DNA of 45,466 bases from a virus (Duplodnaviria; Heunggongvirae; Uroviricota; Caudoviricetes). Location of the stretch: the IMG/VR virus record IMGVR_UViG_2609459834_000005; one strand, written 5' to 3'. The notes under the pieces were generated by a model. It was given only the letters and a program-made list of their open reading frames with translations, was not told the origin of the DNA and ran no database searches. This document shows, in pieces, positions 16,818-40,260 of the stretch (position 1 is its first letter; each line of letters starts with the position of its first letter). Made by a program: the position numbers and the translations under genes.

Positions 16818-17093
16818 TTACTCAATAAAGATCATTGGCTTACCGTTAAAACGTTCATGCCGTGTGACCGTCCATTGTTGTCCGTCATAAACAACGCGAT
16901 CCCCGCGCCGTGGGCGGTATCCCGAAGAAAACACCACCAGAGAGACCGCAGGTCCGGACAGAGCATTCAGCTCTGCCAGTGTTTCTCCCGGGATCACAGT
17001 CATATCGACATCATTAATCGAGGCTGTCTTTCCCATCTTTCTGACCGTGATCGCATCCATACGCGCTGCCAGCCGGGAAAAGGGATCAGACAT
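16818..17093 (-). CDS. putative head-tail joining / head completion protein (FII-like position)
   Basis: 91-aa ORF between head and tail modules; assignment by position. Confidence 0.45.
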   Translation of the reverse strand: MSDPFSRLAARMDAITVRKMGKTASINDVDMTVIPGETLAELNALSGPAVSLVVFSSGYRPRRGDRVVYDGQQWTVTRHERFNGKPMIFIE

Positions 17094-17409
17094 TGAGTTT
17101 TACCGGCACTTCTTCTGCACTGGTTCCGGCATCTGCCCAGACAACCCCGACCAGCGGCTCAGAGCCGCTGTTAGTCAGCTGAACTTTTCCTGACTTCAGA
17201 TAAACCTTCTTACCCGTTTTCATGTCATCCGTTTTCAGCTTAGGCAGCATAAACACACCTTCGGTTATGCCGTCGCCTGTTTCTCCCTGTGGAATATCGG
17301 TCAGCGCCACCGCAAAAACATCCCCCACCTGCACCAGATCTCCGCTGCTGATGGCTGCACTGGCAACAATCGCCACCGTTTTTCCTTCTTCTACAAAATT
17401 CTTTGCCAT
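17086..17409 (-). CDS. small head-associated protein (possible DUF2190 / decoration-like)
   Basis: 107 aa from ATG 17409 with SD GGAGACAG, directly downstream of capsid gene. Confidence 0.45.
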   Translation of the reverse strand: MAKNFVEEGKTVAIVASAAISSGDLVQVGDVFAVALTDIPQGETGDGITEGVFMLPKLKTDDMKTGKKVYLKSGKVQLTNSGSEPLVGVVWADAGTSAEEVPVKLNV

Positions 17410-17453
17410 AACTGTCTCCGCACAGCCCCGTTCAGGGGCTGATTTCAGGTACA

Positions 17454-17480
17454 AAAAAAGCCCTTACGGGCCATCAGAGT
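17454..17480 (-). terminator. candidate terminator downstream of major capsid gene
   Basis: Minus strand gcccgtaagggc hairpin followed by TTTTTTT. Confidence 0.45.
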
Positions 17481-17495
17481 TGTTGTCTGCGACGT

Positions 17496-19454
17496 TTACG
17501 CCGTACATTTCACCAGGCCGCGGTGATCAACTGGCGCAACACCAGCGTCAATACGCACTTTCGTTGTCACGCCATCCACACTGAAGCCCTCCATCTGATC
17601 AATATATGGCGTATCCACACCGTTGAGATAAGCCACTTCAATCGTATCGGAGCCTTTGGACGCAGCCAGGTAGAAGGTGGTCTGGCTGTTATCATCAAGA
17701 CGAGGCTCTGCAATAACGGTCGCAAAATCTTTCACCGGGTTAATAATACCGGCGTTAATGTCAGCCCCCTTGACACTTGAGGAGCGAATGACCTGGTTAG
17801 CAACAGACTCCATCGCCGTCGGTACCAGTACGAACGCAGGACGAATATTCAGATGACGCTCACCCTCTTTCTGAACGCGCATCAACTGGCGGGCTTTATC
17901 CAGCGATGCCACGTCCATTGCCGCGCTCTCCAGTACGTTTGCATGTTTCGCTTTATCGAACAGACTTACATTATCTGTGGAGATTTTCGGGTTAGACGTC
18001 AGAATGGCATAAACCAGATCGGCAATAGTGGATTTCGCCGCACGGCCCAGCTTCATCGGGACATCGGTCAGCATATTCAGATCATCATTGATAATGGCCT
18101 GACGGGTGATACTGAACAGCTCGCCATAGGTCGCCAGTGCAATAGTGGCCTGTTTATCTCCGGTGGTGACGTATTTATATTCTGCCCCTTCACGCACCTG
18201 ACGCAGAGCACTGAAGCCCCCCATACCCACACGATGGGCAATTTTAAAATCAGACAACTGACCTTTCCGCGTCCACTGTTCATAGGTTTCAGGGGCATCT
18301 TCCCAGCCCTGCAGAATGGCTTTGTTCGCAACATCCAGCAGAATATTACCGAAGTCAGACGTACTGTGTGTGAACGCCGCACCGACCATCTGCATCGGGT
18401 TATAACTGGAAACACCAATACCACGTTCAGTCAGTGACATACGGGCATATTCACGCAGGGTCATCCCGTTGTAGACATTATCACGTTCAGTTTTTTCAAA
18501 CCCGGCGCGCGCCATCAGCGCCTGGCGGATCCCGTCCCCCACAAAATTACCGTTACCGGCATAAATATGAGCCGGGGTATTTTTATTGGATGGCGTGGAC
18601 TCGCGCCCCATCTCGTTCAACAGCTTTTCGCGGGCCTGCTCCAGCGAACATTCAGGATCGGCAAGACACTGAGCCTGCAACGACTGATAACGCCCGCCAA
18701 ACATGGCAAACAGATCATTAATACCGTTTACACGCGCTTTTTGCTCTGCCAGGACCTGCGCACGGATGCTGTTTTCATCCACCACGGGTGCTGCTGCCTG
18801 CACTGGCGTCCGGGAGGCTGCAGGTCCATCATCCTGTACGCGTGGAGCACTGTTGCGTGGCGGAGTAATCATATTTCGAATGGATTCCGGCATCTTTTTA
18901 AATTCCTCTGTACGTTTTGACTGAATACATGCCATTGCCTTAACGGCTGGTGTCACCTGATCAGCAAATCCCTGTGCCAGACATTCGGCACCGGACATCC
19001 AGGTCTCATCCGCCAGCATGGCAGCAATTTCATCGGTGGTTTTCCCGGTTTTCTGTGCATAAGCGGGTAACAGAACCGCCTCAACTTTATCGAGCAGGTC
19101 GGCATAGGTGCGCATGTCCTCCGCATCACCGCCCGTAAAGCCAAATGGTTTATGAATCATCATGAAGGAGTTTTCCGGCATAATGACCGGGTTTCCCACC
19201 ATCGCAATGACCGACGCCATTGACGCCGCCACACCGTCGACATAAACGGTAATGGACGCACCATGTGTTTTCAGTGCATTAAAAATGGCGATGCCTTCAA
19301 AGACATCGCCACCCGGTGAATTAATATGGAGATTAATGTGGGTGATATCGCCCAGTGCATTCAGATCACTGATAAACTGCTTCGCCGTAACACCCCAGAA
19401 ACCAATCTCGTCATAAATATAAATATCCGCGTCACTCTGGTGACCTGCCTGCAT
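17496..19454 (-). CDS. prohead protease (ClpP-like) / scaffold / major capsid fusion protein
   Basis: N-terminal ClpP-like motifs, Ala/Pro-rich linker, capsid-like C-terminal half; start set at ATG 19454 just after portal stop. Confidence 0.75.
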   Translation of the reverse strand: MQAGHQSDADIYIYDEIGFWGVTAKQFISDLNALGDITHINLHINSPGGDVFEGIAIFNALKTHGASITVYVDGVAASMASVIAMVGNPVIMPENSFMMIHKPFGFTGGDAEDMRTYADLLDKVEAVLLPAYAQKTGKTTDEIAAMLADETWMSGAECLAQGFADQVTPAVKAMACIQSKRTEEFKKMPESIRNMITPPRNSAPRVQDDGPAASRTPVQAAAPVVDENSIRAQVLAEQKARVNGINDLFAMFGGRYQSLQAQCLADPECSLEQAREKLLNEMGRESTPSNKNTPAHIYAGNGNFVGDGIRQALMARAGFEKTERDNVYNGMTLREYARMSLTERGIGVSSYNPMQMVGAAFTHSTSDFGNILLDVANKAILQGWEDAPETYEQWTRKGQLSDFKIAHRVGMGGFSALRQVREGAEYKYVTTGDKQATIALATYGELFSITRQAIINDDLNMLTDVPMKLGRAAKSTIADLVYAILTSNPKISTDNVSLFDKAKHANVLESAAMDVASLDKARQLMRVQKEGERHLNIRPAFVLVPTAMESVANQVIRSSSVKGADINAGIINPVKDFATVIAEPRLDDNSQTTFYLAASKGSDTIEVAYLNGVDTPYIDQMEGFSVDGVTTKVRIDAGVAPVDHRGLVKCTA

Positions 19455-19467
19455 CCTGAACCAGGAA

Positions 19468-20976
19468 TTATTCTTCGGACTGGTCGTCGGTGTGCTGCGG
19501 CTCCTGTCGTTTCGTTGCGGCACTGCTGCCTCCTTTATCACTGGCCGGATCGGTATCAAATACCAGATCCAGCTTGCGGTTTTCATCAATTTCGGCCTTG
19601 CGCCGACGTTTGACATCATCCGGATTACGACCACCTGCACGTACCCAGTCTGATTCTGTCGCCGCTCCACCACGAATCTGAATTTTCCAGGCCTCAGCCT
19701 CCTTAACAGGGTCAATCCACGGCATCACCGGTCCGGAATACACCGCGGTATACAGTGAAGATCGGTCCAGATCGCGGGGTAGCCTGATAACACCGGATGC
19801 CACAGCCTGTTTCAGCCAGGCACGGTACATCGGGCGGGTGACGGCACCAATAAACCAGTCCTGCAGGATCAGGTAGCCATCAGTAGATTCAACCAGCTCC
19901 TGACGCTGGGCGCTGTAAGTGCCGTTATAGTTGCGCGCTGTACTGGAAAAACTCAGACGACTGCCCGCAGCCACGGCACGCAACTGACCATTACGAAAAG
20001 TTTCAAGGTTAGGATTGGGGCGATCCGACTTCACCATTCCGATTTCTTCGCCGGGTTTCAGATCGTCGTAAATAATGCCTGGCTGAATGGTAAGCTCGCG
20101 TTCATTCTCCTTGCTGTCATTACCATCCGTTTCATAGCTCTGTCCGTCGCCTTTCCGGATGTACATCCCCAGAGCAGCGGCGATCCTTGCTGCAGTCAGC
20201 TCAGAATCTTCATACTCTTTCAGAGCACTGAGGCGGATCAGCACACCGGACAACAAAGACGTCCCGCGCATCTGGTGCAGACGGCGAACAAATTTAAGAT
20301 GCAGCATTCGCTCTGCATCCACTTCTTTGGTTTCCATCTGCCGCCCGGATACGGGACGGCTTTTATACACCAGATATTTTTCGGGACGCCCCCAGTCATC
20401 AACAAACACGCCCTGATTCAGCCTGTTGCTCTCATCACTGGTCATGGGAATAAAGTCCGGCTCGAGCGCCTCCAGCCAGAAATGAACACCGGCAGAAGGC
20501 GTCAGGCTGTTTATGCGCCCGGAAACCATCTGGGCAAACACCTCACCATCGCGCAGCCAGGTACGCAGCATCAGACGTTCCAGCATCGGACGGGTAAACT
20601 GCCCGGTGACCTCCGGACTGACAGACCATTCACTCCATCGGGTACGTATCTCCGCTGCCAGATCACGGGCAATGGCCCCATTGCGTAATACCGGATGTGG
20701 CTCGACAATAATCCCGTTTTTCCCCACCACCCGTTCTTCCAGCTTGTCAAATACACCAATGACCAGATCGTGGTTGTCATCAAGGTAACGGGCCTGCTCA
20801 CGTAACGACACGGCCCCGTACTGGCTTAACTGGTCGGCAGTTCGGCTCTCCCGTCGGGCTTTGTGTGTCCGCGTCGTTTTTACGGCCTCATAAGCCTGGA
20901 TCACCGCACGGGAACGCAGCCTTGCCGCTTTCCATCCTGGTGAAAAAACGCCAATCACATCATCAAGAATTGCCAT
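19468..20976 (-). CDS. portal protein
   Basis: ~500-aa ORF between gpW-like and protease-capsid genes; start at ATG 20976 overlapping W stop. Confidence 0.85.
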   Translation of the reverse strand: MAILDDVIGVFSPGWKAARLRSRAVIQAYEAVKTTRTHKARRESRTADQLSQYGAVSLREQARYLDDNHDLVIGVFDKLEERVVGKNGIIVEPHPVLRNGAIARDLAAEIRTRWSEWSVSPEVTGQFTRPMLERLMLRTWLRDGEVFAQMVSGRINSLTPSAGVHFWLEALEPDFIPMTSDESNRLNQGVFVDDWGRPEKYLVYKSRPVSGRQMETKEVDAERMLHLKFVRRLHQMRGTSLLSGVLIRLSALKEYEDSELTAARIAAALGMYIRKGDGQSYETDGNDSKENERELTIQPGIIYDDLKPGEEIGMVKSDRPNPNLETFRNGQLRAVAAGSRLSFSSTARNYNGTYSAQRQELVESTDGYLILQDWFIGAVTRPMYRAWLKQAVASGVIRLPRDLDRSSLYTAVYSGPVMPWIDPVKEAEAWKIQIRGGAATESDWVRAGGRNPDDVKRRRKAEIDENRKLDLVFDTDPASDKGGSSAATKRQEPQHTDDQSEE

Positions 20977-40202: not shown

Positions 40203-40260
40203 TTTCTGGTGACGTTTGGCGGTATCAGTTTTACTCCGTGACTGCTCTGCCGCCCTTTTT
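40203..40260 (+). ncRNA. dicF: DicF small RNA (ftsZ-targeting) with intrinsic terminator
   Basis: tttctggtgacgtttggcggtatcagttttactccgtgactgctctgccgcccttttt matches remembered DicF. Confidence 0.88.

What the first reader, a model, noticed from the sequence alone, without database searches (positions are those of the whole stretch)
17496..19454. Single ORF fusing prohead protease, scaffold-like linker and major capsid protein
Unlike lambda (separate C, Nu3, E), one ~650-aa reading frame encodes a ClpP-like protease region, an Ala/Pro-rich linker and a capsid-like C-terminal half. It is followed by a hairpin plus T7 terminator and sits with lambda-type tail genes. This points to an HK97-like head module joined to a lambda-type tail and lysis module.
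Basis: partly seen in the sequence, partly recalled or inferred. Interest (0 to 1): 0.35.

Follow-up and report, generated by a model that had tools for sequence, protein, structure and literature searches.

The report
Fused protease–scaffold–capsid gene, probably nested
This is the already known Gifsy-2-type phage head gene that joins a ClpP-like protease, a scaffold segment and the major capsid protein in one reading frame, and comparative analysis suggests it also has a conserved, unannotated internal start that would make a protease-free scaffold–capsid protein.

Summary
A minus-strand ORF ending at 17496 encodes an N-terminal ClpP-type prohead protease, a hypervariable Ala/Pro-rich linker, a helical scaffold-like segment and a C-terminal Mu-gpT/HK97-fold capsid domain. 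A hairpin plus U7 terminator follows it, and it sits among lambda-type portal, terminase and tail genes.

It is not new. The window is about 99.5% identical to phage mEp460. The gene matches NCBIfam NF045540 ([quoted passage not shown]) end to end and occurs in about 2,100 of 5,426 complete E. coli genomes. It is 70% identical to the Gifsy-2 "tripartite capsid gene" (Effantin 2010).

Two corrections: the true start is probably GTG 19523 (675 aa, strong SD, overlapping the portal gene), not ATG 19454. The head module is Gifsy-2-type, not HK97-family.

One addition: an invariant in-frame ATG at 18893, at the protease/scaffold junction, carries the full signature of a translation start across 44–76 diverged homologs. 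That signature is an SD kept through synonymous choice, A/U-enriched third positions and almost no RNA structure. A sister family with a different fused protease shows the same thing. I infer a nested 465-aa scaffold–capsid product, analogous to lambda C/Nu3. This is untested experimentally.

The parts
17496..19523 (-). Full-length CDS: protease-linker-scaffold-capsid fusion, 675 aa, 73.4 kDa, with a GTG start
   Evidence: RefSeq calls this CDS in an identical E. coli S88 prophage. NF045540 matches at 984 bits. The SD and start arrangement is conserved in homologs. Mass.
19529..19535 (-). Shine-Dalgarno AAGGAGG of the full-length start, 5 nt before GTG 19523
   Evidence: Sequence. Anti-SD duplex -11.6 kcal/mol. 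The same motif is present in the Stx, mEp213 and Klebsiella homologs.
17496..19454 (-).
   Evidence: This ATG has no SD (dG -2.2) and is Ile in Gifsy-2 and MD8.
18951..19388 (-). ClpP-like (S14) prohead protease domain. Catalytic Ser codon at 19221-19223 and His codon at 19152-19154.
   Evidence: Pfam CLP_protease E 4.6e-36. NF045542 'head maturation protease, ClpP-related' 217 bits. It aligns to solved ClpP with the GxAAS-M and MIH-xP motifs conserved. Coordinates.
18904..18907 (-). Internal SD-like AGGA, 10 nt upstream of the internal ATG
   Evidence: Codon -5 ends in G in 71/71 homologs against 29.8 expected. It is the extreme outlier among 29 E/Q/K columns. An SD motif is present in 100% of 44 dereplicated sequences, against 0-5% at other conserved Met codons.
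18891..18893 (-). Invariant in-frame internal ATG (Met211 of the 675-aa form, Met188 of the 652-aa form), the predicted internal start
   Evidence: Met in 76/78 homologs. The window's local fold energy is -1.6 kcal/mol and A+U is 70%. Third-position G/C is 138 observed against 255 expected, z -11.6. This ATG passes the joint criterion in 32/44 sequences, against 1/1651 other in-frame ATG/GTG codons.
17496..18893 (-). Predicted nested product: scaffold plus capsid, 465 aa, 50.6 kDa (inferred, not shown)
   Evidence: Some stand-alone relatives begin with the same MP..K.LF motif.
18777..18869 (-). Ala/Pro-rich hypervariable linker
   Evidence: A+P 37-40%. Length and sequence vary among homologs. 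Synonymous and amino-acid variability are highest here.
18603..18776 (-). Conserved helical scaffold-like segment
   Evidence: This is the only part of both AF2 models with pLDDT 65-84, and it forms three helices. It is covered by the NF045541 match to residues 197-649. A scaffolding role is inferred from its position and from what is said of Gifsy-2.
17508..18395 (-). Major capsid protein domain (Phage_capsid_4 / Mu gpT-like, HK97 fold by homology)
   Evidence: Pfam E 6e-55 and Mu-like_gpT E 3.7e-8. The profile matches the solved JBD30 capsid protein 8rkc/8rkx at E 2e-10.
17453..17472 (-). Intrinsic terminator-like hairpin (5-bp GC stem, GUAA loop) plus U7
   Evidence: Annotated as a terminator in mEp460 and at the same place in mEp213.
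17423..17441 (-). Second, stronger hairpin (7-bp stem, -13.9 kcal/mol) with no U run, 13 nt before the cement gene start
17086..17409 (-). Capsid cement/decoration protein gene (107 aa)
   Evidence: Pfam Phage_cement_2 E 2.7e-20. 62% identical to the Gifsy-2 counterpart.
19468..20976 (-). Lambda-family portal gene. Its last 56 nt overlap the fusion gene.
   Evidence: Pfam Phage_portal_2 E 1.2e-81. Annotations.

Best explanation
Shown: this is the head-shell gene of an mEp460-like lambdoid prophage. It is a member of the known family of ClpP-like prohead protease/major capsid protein fusions and a 70%-identical homolog of the Gifsy-2 'tripartite capsid gene'. Translation from GTG 19523, which overlaps the end of the portal gene, gives a 73-kDa protein made of an S14-type serine protease, a variable Ala/Pro linker, a helical scaffold-like segment and an HK97-fold capsid domain.

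Inferred from comparative sequence evidence only: the same mRNA also has a second, in-frame initiation site at ATG 18893, exactly at the protease/scaffold junction. This site would give a 50.6-kDa scaffold-capsid protein without the protease, equivalent to HK97 gp5 with its delta domain. The two products would co-assemble on the portal into a T=7 procapsid. The full-length form would be a minority subunit whose capsid domain anchors the protease inside the shell. The protease would then remove the scaffold and linker parts and degrade itself. After expansion, trimers of the downstream cement protein would bind the shell. The weak terminator after the gene is presumably read through by Q-antiterminated late transcription.
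For: Family and identity:
- NF045540 at 984 bits end to end.
- CLP_protease plus Phage_capsid_4.
- PHROG 133 full length.
- 99.4-99.9% nucleotide identity to mEp460.
- Named as this fusion in RefSeq and present in 2125/5426 E. coli genomes.
- 70% identity to the Gifsy-2 gene over the full length, and 62% for the cement protein.
- Gifsy-2 is described as having fused protease and coat genes, trimeric cement at threefold axes and T=7 geometry.
- Catalytic Ser and His are conserved.

Start at 19523.

Internal start at 18893:
- ATG invariant in 76/78 homologs down to 46% identity.
- Codon -5 is GAG, CAG or AAG in 71/71 against 29.8 expected. The five sequences with other residues still have GGAG or AGGAG.
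- This codon is the extreme outlier among 29 comparable columns.
- Only this one of nine conserved Met codons has an SD motif (100% against 0-5%), an open context (mean fold energy -5.1 against background -13.9, sd 4.8) and 62% A+U.
- Third positions are depleted of G/C, 138 against 255 expected, z -11.6. This also holds in high-GC Pseudomonas-type genes.
- Joint criterion: 32/44 at the junction ATG against 1/1651 elsewhere.
- The synonymous-variability minimum of the whole gene lies here.

Independent replication: the sister family with an HK97-type protease fused to the same scaffold-capsid has an SD-plus-ATG in open RNA 17-32 codons after the protease domain in 10/11 dereplicated genes. Elsewhere in those genes 4/282 candidates pass, and three of those are probably the gene's own start.

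Precedent: nested protease/scaffold genes are known in lambda, HSV-1 and the archaeal virus HFTV1.
Against: - No expression data were available, so the internal start is an inference.
- In the window the internal SD is only moderate (AGGA, dG -6.0, 10 nt from the ATG), and 12 of 44 homologs miss the joint threshold.
- Met-Pro is also part of a conserved protein motif. In more distant ClpP-type fusions (38-45% identity) the Met is replaced by Ile, Val or Ala before the Pro. The ATG is therefore not universal, and some of its conservation is at the protein level.
- The positive control on lambda gene C was ambiguous. The RefSeq-annotated Nu3 start fails the joint criterion, and a different in-frame ATG is the best site.
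- I could not read Effantin et al. 2010, so I do not know which polypeptides they saw in procapsids or whether they discussed an internal start.
- The homolog sequences are related, so the counts overstate the number of independent events, although they were dereplicated at 85% identity and span many genera.
- Both structure predictions failed, so the HK97 fold and the domain boundaries rest on profile homology only.
Confidence: 0.7

Rival explanations
1. Single polyprotein only. Every capsid subunit is made as the full 73-kDa protease-scaffold-capsid chain, as the phrase 'fused genes' suggests. Each subunit brings its own protease, which later cuts itself off. The internal SD-like motif and ATG are not used for initiation. 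They could be a translational pause at the domain boundary, or a by-product of selection on the protein motif and on RNA openness for some other reason.
For: RefSeq and all phage records annotate a single CDS. A 2025 paper by lambdoid-phage specialists describes the Gifsy-2 genes simply as fused. Met-Pro is part of a protein motif, and the Met is replaced by Ile, Val or Ala in distant relatives. The internal SD is modest in the window.
Against: Protein-level constraint cannot explain the 71/71 G-ending codon -5 when the amino acid itself varies among E, Q and K. Nor can it explain the z = -11.6 depletion of G/C at synonymous third positions. A pause site would not require an ATG at fixed spacing, nor an unstructured A/U-rich context. 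The same signature appears independently in a family with an unrelated protease domain. A strict 1:1 protease-to-capsid ratio differs from the nested protease/scaffold systems read here, where the shorter product is the more abundant one. From established knowledge of lambda and HK97, the protease is also a minor component there.
Confidence: 0.25
2. Artefactual or degenerate fusion. Two originally separate genes, a protease and a capsid gene, were joined by a sequencing error or by a mutation in a decaying prophage, so the long ORF is not a functional unit.
For: Some database entries show obviously chimeric longer proteins containing this sequence, for example 1027-aa and 1135-aa entries that also carry terminase or portal domains. 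The VT1-Sakai copy is interrupted by IS629.
Against: The uninterrupted frame is conserved in 74 phage records, including plaque-forming phages (mEp460, mEp213, LLS, cdtI, F10, MD8). It is also intact in about 2,000 E. coli genomes and in 70 of the 80 loci kept from a scan of one genome per bacterial species, at 46-100% identity. A curated NCBIfam model covers the whole length. No other capsid gene lies between the portal and tail genes.
Confidence: 0.01
3. The C-terminal half is a scaffold or some other head protein rather than the major capsid protein, as many GenBank records imply with names such as 'protease/scaffold protein', 'Nu3' or 'head maturation protease'.
For: The annotation names in phage records are inconsistent.
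Against: Pfam Phage_capsid_4 at E 6e-55 and Mu gpT. The profile matches the solved capsid protein of phage JBD30, whose paper describes it with an N-terminal arm, extended loop, peripheral domain and axial domain. No other capsid candidate exists in the head module. The Gifsy-2 homolog is reported as the coat protein.
Confidence: 0.02

Closest known systems
Gifsy-2 'tripartite capsid gene' (STM1034.3n in NC_010393; Effantin et al. 2010, Virology 402:355) and NCBIfam NF045540
   Same: 70% amino-acid identity over the full length. The order ClpP-protease, linker, scaffold-like segment, capsid is the same. The gene has the same position after a lambda-family portal and before a homologous cement protein (62% identity) and lambda-type tail genes.
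   Different: The linker differs in length and sequence. The window's start codon is GTG rather than ATG, and the N-terminal extension is shorter. No difference in kind was found.
Phage mEp460, phage cdtI and related E. coli prophages
   Same: 98.3-99.9% nucleotide identity across the gene and its flanks, and the same terminator.
   Different: The GenBank mEp460 record starts the CDS at the SD-less ATG 19454 and calls it 'protease/scaffold protein'. RefSeq genome annotation uses GTG 19523 and the fusion name.
HK97 gp4/gp5 head module
   Same: The scaffold function is fused to the N-terminus of the capsid protein and removed by a phage protease. The predicted 465-aa internal product would be organised like gp5 (delta domain plus capsid). 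Both have an HK97-fold capsid.
   Different: The protease is ClpP/S14-type, not the HK97 gp4 type, and it is encoded in the same frame as the capsid. The capsid domain belongs to a different Pfam family (Phage_capsid_4/Mu gpT). A separate cement protein is present, which suggests stabilisation by decoration rather than by covalent chainmail.
Nested protease/scaffold genes: lambda C/Nu3, HSV-1 UL26/UL26.5, HFTV1 gp17/gp17.5
   Same: An in-frame internal start inside the protease gene yields a shorter, C-terminally identical assembly protein. The window gene shows the sequence signature of such a start at the protease/scaffold junction.
   Different: Here the shared C-terminal part would include the capsid protein itself, not only the scaffold. 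Lambda's protease is S49-type and its capsid gene E is separate. The internal start here is predicted, not demonstrated.
NF045541-type fusions (a different protease domain, probably HK97-type, fused to a related scaffold-capsid)
   Same: The scaffold-capsid half is homologous: NF045541 matches residues 197-649 at 399 bits. The overall architecture is the same, and there is the same junction initiation signature.
   Different: The N-terminal protease domain is different, and the whole-protein score is below that family's cutoff of 525.
Phage JBD30 capsid protein gp38 (PDB 8rkc), Mu gpT family
   Same: This is the closest solved structure by sequence profile (E 2e-10, two collinear blocks). Its capsid is also decorated by trimers of a minor protein.
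   Different: JBD30 encodes the scaffold (gp33), the protease (gp37) and the capsid protein (gp38) as separate genes.

Membership tests
NF045540 ClpP-like prohead protease/major capsid protein fusion | Whole-protein HMM score above the curated cutoff, over the full length | tested here: met
   984 bits against a cutoff of 475. Residues 9-651 match profile positions 2-651 of 652.
NF045540 ClpP-like prohead protease/major capsid protein fusion | N-terminal ClpP-related head maturation protease domain with catalytic Ser and His | tested here: met
   NF045542 at 217 bits (cutoff 120) and Pfam CLP_protease E 4.6e-36. Ser78 in GVAAS-M and His101 in MIH-KP (652-aa numbering) align to the ClpP active-site motifs and are invariant in homologs. 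The residue aligned to the ClpP Asp is an invariant Glu150.
NF045540 ClpP-like prohead protease/major capsid protein fusion | C-terminal major capsid domain | tested here: met
   Phage_capsid_4 E 6e-55 and Mu-like_gpT E 3.7e-8. Profile match to the solved JBD30 capsid protein.
Gifsy-2-type head module | Gene order: lambda-family terminase, small connector gene, lambda-family portal, fusion gene, cement protein, head-tail genes, lambda-type tail | tested here: met
   Pfam on ten neighbours. Gifsy-2 annotation. Pairwise identities of 70% and 62%.
Gifsy-2-type head module | T=7 capsid with cement trimers at threefold axes | not testable with these tools
   Reported for Gifsy-2 in papers read here. 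Inferred for this phage by homology.
   Only ClpP-type protease families matched. No HK97-type protease family appeared in the Pfam or NCBIfam hits at E <= 0.01.
   The only capsid families found in Pfam at E <= 0.01 were Phage_capsid_4 and Mu-like_gpT.
   A cement protein gene follows the capsid gene, which argues indirectly against chainmail.
Lambda head module (C, Nu3, D, E) | S49-family protease gpC and separate capsid gene E | tested here: not met
   Only a weak partial SppA/S49 hit, far below cutoff (21.8 bits against 155). The capsid is in the same frame as the protease. Lambda layout is shown.
Nested protease/scaffold genes (lambda C/Nu3 type) | In-frame internal translation start within the protease gene, giving a C-terminally identical shorter protein | tested here: inconclusive
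   The comparative signature is strong: an SD kept by synonymous choice in 71/71, A/U-rich third positions at z -11.6, open RNA, and 32/44 against 1/1651. There are no expression data. The lambda control was ambiguous.
Nested protease/scaffold genes (lambda C/Nu3 type) | The shorter product is made in excess over the full-length protease form | not testable with these tools
   The relative initiation strengths cannot be derived reliably from sequence. The upstream start is GTG with SD dG -11.6 and fold energy -12.1. The internal start is ATG with SD dG -6.0 and fold energy -1.6.

The most novel reading that the evidence does not exclude
The 'tripartite' protease-scaffold-capsid genes may not be simple polyprotein genes but nested two-product genes. 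A conserved internal SD plus ATG at the protease/scaffold junction would produce a protease-free scaffold-capsid protein as the main shell subunit. The full-length chain would be a minority subunit that carries the protease into the procapsid. This would apply both to the ClpP-type family, which is present in about 40% of complete E. coli genomes, and to the sister family with a different fused protease. It would extend the lambda C/Nu3 and herpesvirus UL26/UL26.5 strategy to the capsid protein itself. The internal product is unannotated in every record I saw. The probability below is for the start being functional and also not already described in work I could not read.
Probability: 0.45. Interest if true: 0.55.

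Novelty: already known. Interest (0 to 1): 0.35.

Why it matters
The fusion itself matters little, because it is curated, widespread and was studied by cryo-EM in Gifsy-2. Three practical points follow from this check.

1. Annotation of this gene is inconsistent. Records call it 'protease', 'Nu3', 'scaffold', 'terminase protein' or 'major head protein', and they use two different start codons. Automated capsid finders are reported to have missed the Gifsy-2 capsid protein.

2. If the internal start is real, it explains how a phage whose protease and capsid share one frame can still make far fewer proteases than shell subunits. It also adds an unannotated protein to thousands of prophages.

3. 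The same junction signature in two families with unrelated proteases suggests a general design rule for capsid maturation modules. That would link bacterial, archaeal and herpes viruses more closely.

Tried and rejected
(1) Structure prediction. Two AlphaFold2 runs gave mean pLDDT 36.4 and 36.9. The first used the 675-aa protein with 15 sequences. The second used the 465-aa internal product with 36 sequences. Only a three-helix scaffold segment was confident. I ran no fold search because low-confidence models give meaningless matches.

(2) A sequence search of the PDB with the single protein found only ClpP chains. A profile of 28 diverse homologs was needed to reach a solved capsid protein.

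(3) The first IMG/VR scan returned only near-identical copies, which were useless for conservation tests. I replaced it with annotated phage hits and the species-dereplicated genome scan.

(4) I tried to find the genomic context of a stand-alone scaffold-capsid relative (P0130) to see whether a separate protease gene lies upstream. No locus encoding it was found, and the best matches were only 54% identical.

(5) A column-wise search for a conserved start in the sister family failed because its linker does not align. A per-sequence scan was needed.

(6) The lambda C/Nu3 positive control was ambiguous. The RefSeq Nu3 start (lambda 5132) is in structured RNA, and the best site is lambda 5342. 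I could not obtain Medina et al. 2011, Liu and Mushegian 2004 or Effantin et al. 2010 to resolve this or to check prior descriptions.

(7) I considered an internal start giving capsid alone. No in-frame ATG or GTG near the capsid domain boundary (residues about 290-360) has an SD or an open context.

(8) I considered Met114 as a start. It has a GGAGG motif, but only 2-3 nt from the ATG and in structured RNA, so I rejected it.
Full report
**1. The observation**

The window has a long open frame on the minus strand whose stop codon is at 17496-17498. Translated from 19454 it is 652 aa.

- Pfam finds a Clp protease domain at residues 23-168 (E 4.6e-36) and a phage capsid domain, Phage_capsid_4, at 354-649 (E 6e-55). 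There is a weaker Mu gpT match.
- Between the two domains, residues 196-225 are 37-40% Ala+Pro.
- The stop is followed by GGCCC-GUAA-GGGCU and a run of seven U. The fold energy is -8.8 kcal/mol. The mEp460 record annotates this as a rho-independent terminator.
- The neighbours are lambda-type: gpA terminase, lambda-family portal, then Z, U, V, G and T tail genes.

**2. What it is**

NCBIfam model NF045540, named 'ClpP-like prohead protease/major capsid protein fusion protein', matches end to end at 984 bits against a cutoff of 475. PHROG 133 matches over the full length.

The DNA is 99.4-99.9% identical to phage mEp460 and its relatives. Identical or near-identical copies occur in 2125 of 5426 complete E. 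coli genomes, where RefSeq already gives the gene that name.

The protein is 70% identical over its whole length to the Gifsy-2 gene. This is the gene Effantin et al. (2010) called the tripartite capsid gene. The downstream 107-aa protein is a Phage_cement_2 member, 62% identical to its Gifsy-2 counterpart. Papers I could read describe Gifsy-2 as having fused protease and coat genes, a trimeric cement protein at threefold axes and a T=7 capsid. I could not read the primary paper. My recollection of its abstract is that it describes a ClpP-like N-terminus, a central domain of about 200 residues with a possible scaffolding role and a C-terminal capsid protein. That recollection is from memory only.

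Full-length fusions are found in 74 phage records from Escherichia, Salmonella, Klebsiella, Providencia and Pseudomonas. They were also found in 70 of the 80 loci kept from a scan of one genome per bacterial species, across Enterobacterales, Pasteurellaceae, Shewanella, Vibrio and others. The scaffold-capsid half alone has about 10,600 relatives at the 50%-cluster level.

**3. Protease and capsid details**

The catalytic Ser (GVAAS-M) and His (MIH-KP) align with the ClpP active-site motifs and are invariant in homologs. The position aligned to the ClpP Asp is an invariant Glu.

No solved structure matches the capsid half by single-sequence search. A profile of 28 diverse homologs matches the capsid protein of Pseudomonas phage JBD30 (PDB 8rkc/8rkx, E about 2e-10, two collinear blocks). 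The JBD30 paper describes that protein with an N-terminal arm, extended loop, peripheral domain and axial domain, and describes decoration by trimers.

Two AlphaFold2 attempts failed (pLDDT 36-37) because the permitted alignments were shallow. Only a three-helix segment in the scaffold-like region was confident. The HK97 fold is therefore inferred from homology and was not modelled here.

**4. Correction of the start**

The ATG at 19454 has no Shine-Dalgarno sequence (anti-SD duplex -2.2 kcal/mol). Sixty-nine nucleotides upstream, a GTG at 19523 is preceded by AAGGAGG at 5-nt spacing (-11.6 kcal/mol). RefSeq uses this start, giving 675 aa. The commonest database clusters are also 675 aa.

Homologs keep the same SD-plus-start arrangement. 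The residues between the two candidate starts are conserved as protein (…SWF/Y…). The gene thus overlaps the last 56 nt of the portal gene.

**5.

The domain reading is right. The label 'HK97-like head module' is not:
- The protease is ClpP-type, not the HK97 gp4 type.
- The capsid domain is not in the HK97 gp5 sequence family.
- A cement protein is present.
- The terminase and portal are lambda-family.

The head is of the Gifsy-2 type. It resembles HK97 in having the scaffold fused to the capsid protein, and it resembles lambda in having a decoration trimer.

**6. The internal-start question**

No credible start lies at the capsid domain boundary. The in-frame ATG at 18893 is different. It is Met188 of the 652-aa form and Met211 of the 675-aa form, exactly at the end of the protease domain.

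- *Invariance.* It is Met in 76 of 78 homologs down to 46% identity.
- *SD conservation.* Five codons upstream, the amino acid varies (Glu, Gln, Lys), but the codon is always GAG, CAG or AAG and is followed by GAN. This keeps AGGA in 71 of 71 cases, where each gene's own codon usage predicts 29.8. The five genes with other residues there still have GGAG or AGGAG. Among all 29 alignment columns dominated by Glu/Gln/Lys, this one is the extreme outlier: 98% G-ending, against 75% for the next and a median near 47%.
- *Specificity.* Of nine conserved Met codons, only this one has an SD motif at proper spacing (100% of 44 dereplicated sequences; 0-5% at the others; 4.9% background). It also has open RNA (mean fold energy -5.1 against -13.9 +/- 4.8 kcal/mol) and 62% A+U.
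- *Third positions only.* Using third positions and each gene's own amino-acid-specific codon usage, G/C is 138 observed against 255 expected around this ATG (z = -11.6). The depletion also appears in high-GC Pseudomonas-type genes (z = -6.5). Among 89 control windows along the gene, the most extreme falls on the same site.
- *Joint criterion.* With SD dG <= -5.5 and fold energy >= -8, the junction ATG passes in 32 of 44 genes. Only 1 of 1651 other in-frame ATG/GTG codons passes.
- *Window values.* In the window the site has SD dG -6.0, fold energy -1.6 kcal/mol and 70% A+U.
- *Synonymous variability.* In an initial set of eight phages, the lowest synonymous variability of the whole gene also fell here.

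**7. Independent replication**

About 30 of the nearest 148 cluster representatives of the scaffold-capsid half carry a different N-terminal domain. Going by its conserved motifs, this is probably an HK97-type protease, the NF045541-like architecture.

I fetched 26 full-length members from viral contigs, which became 11 after dereplication. In 10 of the 11, an in-frame ATG lies 17-32 codons after the end of the protease domain. It has a canonical SD (AAGGAG, GAGGAG, AGGAGG) and almost no local structure. Elsewhere in these ORFs only 4 of 282 candidates pass, and three of those lie where the gene's own start should be. So two families with unrelated proteases share the same junction signature.

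**8. Caveats on the internal start**

- There are no expression data.
- Met-Pro is also part of a conserved protein motif. In more distant ClpP-type fusions the Met is Ile, Val or Ala, so the ATG is not universal.
- Some stand-alone relatives begin with the same MP..K.LF motif, but I could not retrieve their genomic context.
- The positive control on lambda C was ambiguous. The RefSeq-annotated Nu3 start fails the joint criterion, and a different in-frame ATG (lambda 5342, GGAGG, dG -10.8) is the best site. I could not obtain the papers needed to resolve which start gpNu3 uses.
- The sequences are related, so the raw counts overstate independence.
- Effantin et al. may already have discussed an internal start.

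**9. Proposed mechanism**

Shown: the gene belongs to the ClpP-protease/capsid fusion family and sits in a Gifsy-2-type head module.

Inferred: two products are made from one frame, a 73.4-kDa full-length chain from GTG 19523 and a 50.6-kDa scaffold-capsid chain from ATG 18893. They co-assemble. The capsid domain of the full-length chain tethers the protease inside the procapsid. The protease removes the scaffold and linker parts. The shell expands and is cemented by trimers of the downstream protein.

This is the lambda C/Nu3, HSV-1 UL26/UL26.5 and HFTV1 gp17/gp17.5 strategy, extended so that the shared C-terminal part includes the capsid protein. The rival is a simple polyprotein with a 1:1 protease-to-capsid ratio. 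It cannot be excluded without experiments.

**10. Verdict**

The finding is real and correctly read in its essentials, but it describes an already known, curated and very common prophage gene. The corrected start and the family label are minor. The conserved internal initiation signature is the one result that might be new. It is a concrete, testable prediction.

The rest of the window looks like an ordinary complete lambdoid prophage.

Noticed in passing
window 19454 vs 19523 (minus strand): Public records disagree on the start of this gene. GenBank mEp460 uses the SD-less ATG (652 aa), while RefSeq genomes use the GTG with AAGGAGG (675 aa). Product names in phage records range from 'Nu3' and 'head-tail preconnector protease C' to 'terminase protein' and 'major head protein'.
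   Followed up: yes
window 17423-17441 (minus strand): A second, stronger hairpin (7-bp stem, -13.9 kcal/mol, z -3.4) with no U run lies between the terminator and the cement gene start at 17409. It could be an RNA stability or processing element, or it could modulate translation of the cement gene.
   Followed up: partly
window 18915-18917 (Lys180 codon, 652-aa numbering): The Lys codon eight codons before the internal ATG is AAA in 37 of 37 dereplicated homologs. This is a second synonymous-site extreme next to the SD, consistent with an A-rich initiation region.
   Followed up: partly
loci L241-L298 (IMG/VR contigs): A sister family, in which a different (probably HK97-type) protease is fused to a related scaffold-capsid, also has an in-frame ATG with a canonical SD in unstructured RNA, 17-32 codons after the protease domain, in 10 of 11 dereplicated genes.
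   Followed up: yes
L321 (lambda NC_001416) locus 1143 = lambda 5342, versus the annotated nu3 start at lambda 5132: Within lambda gene C, the best initiation-like in-frame site (caGGAGGgcgaATG, dG -10.8, least structured) is not the RefSeq-annotated Nu3 start, which lies in structured RNA. The annotated Nu3 start may deserve a second look.
   Followed up: partly
window 1430-1628 (minus strand): Rfam IS009 small RNA, 226.7 bits.
   Followed up: no
window 26274-26659 and 29170-29562 (minus strand): Two cspA-type thermoregulator leaders (112.8 and 158.8 bits) lie in a low-GC stretch (35-41% GC at 25-30 kb). This implies two cold-shock-protein cargo genes in the late/lysis region of the prophage.
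   Followed up: no
window 40204-40255 (plus strand): DicF antisense small RNA (76.7 bits), as in Qin-type prophage immunity regions.
   Followed up: no
AP000400.1 (phage VT1-Sakai), hits H20/H97: The homologous fusion gene in VT1-Sakai is interrupted by IS629, so that copy is probably non-functional.
   Followed up: no
window 16818-17093 (minus strand): The 91-aa protein at a head-tail connector position matches Pfam PF13856 'Gifsy-2', described as 'ATP-binding sugar transporter from pro-phage'. RefSeq calls it 'DNA breaking-rejoining protein'. Both names look inappropriate for a gene lying between the cement gene and the gpZ-like gene.
   Followed up: no
proteins P0006, P0033, P0063: Database entries of 1027-1135 aa join this protein to portal or terminase domains. 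Because the portal and fusion genes overlap by 56 nt in different frames, a single indel would create such chimeras. They are probably assembly or frameshift artefacts.
   Followed up: no
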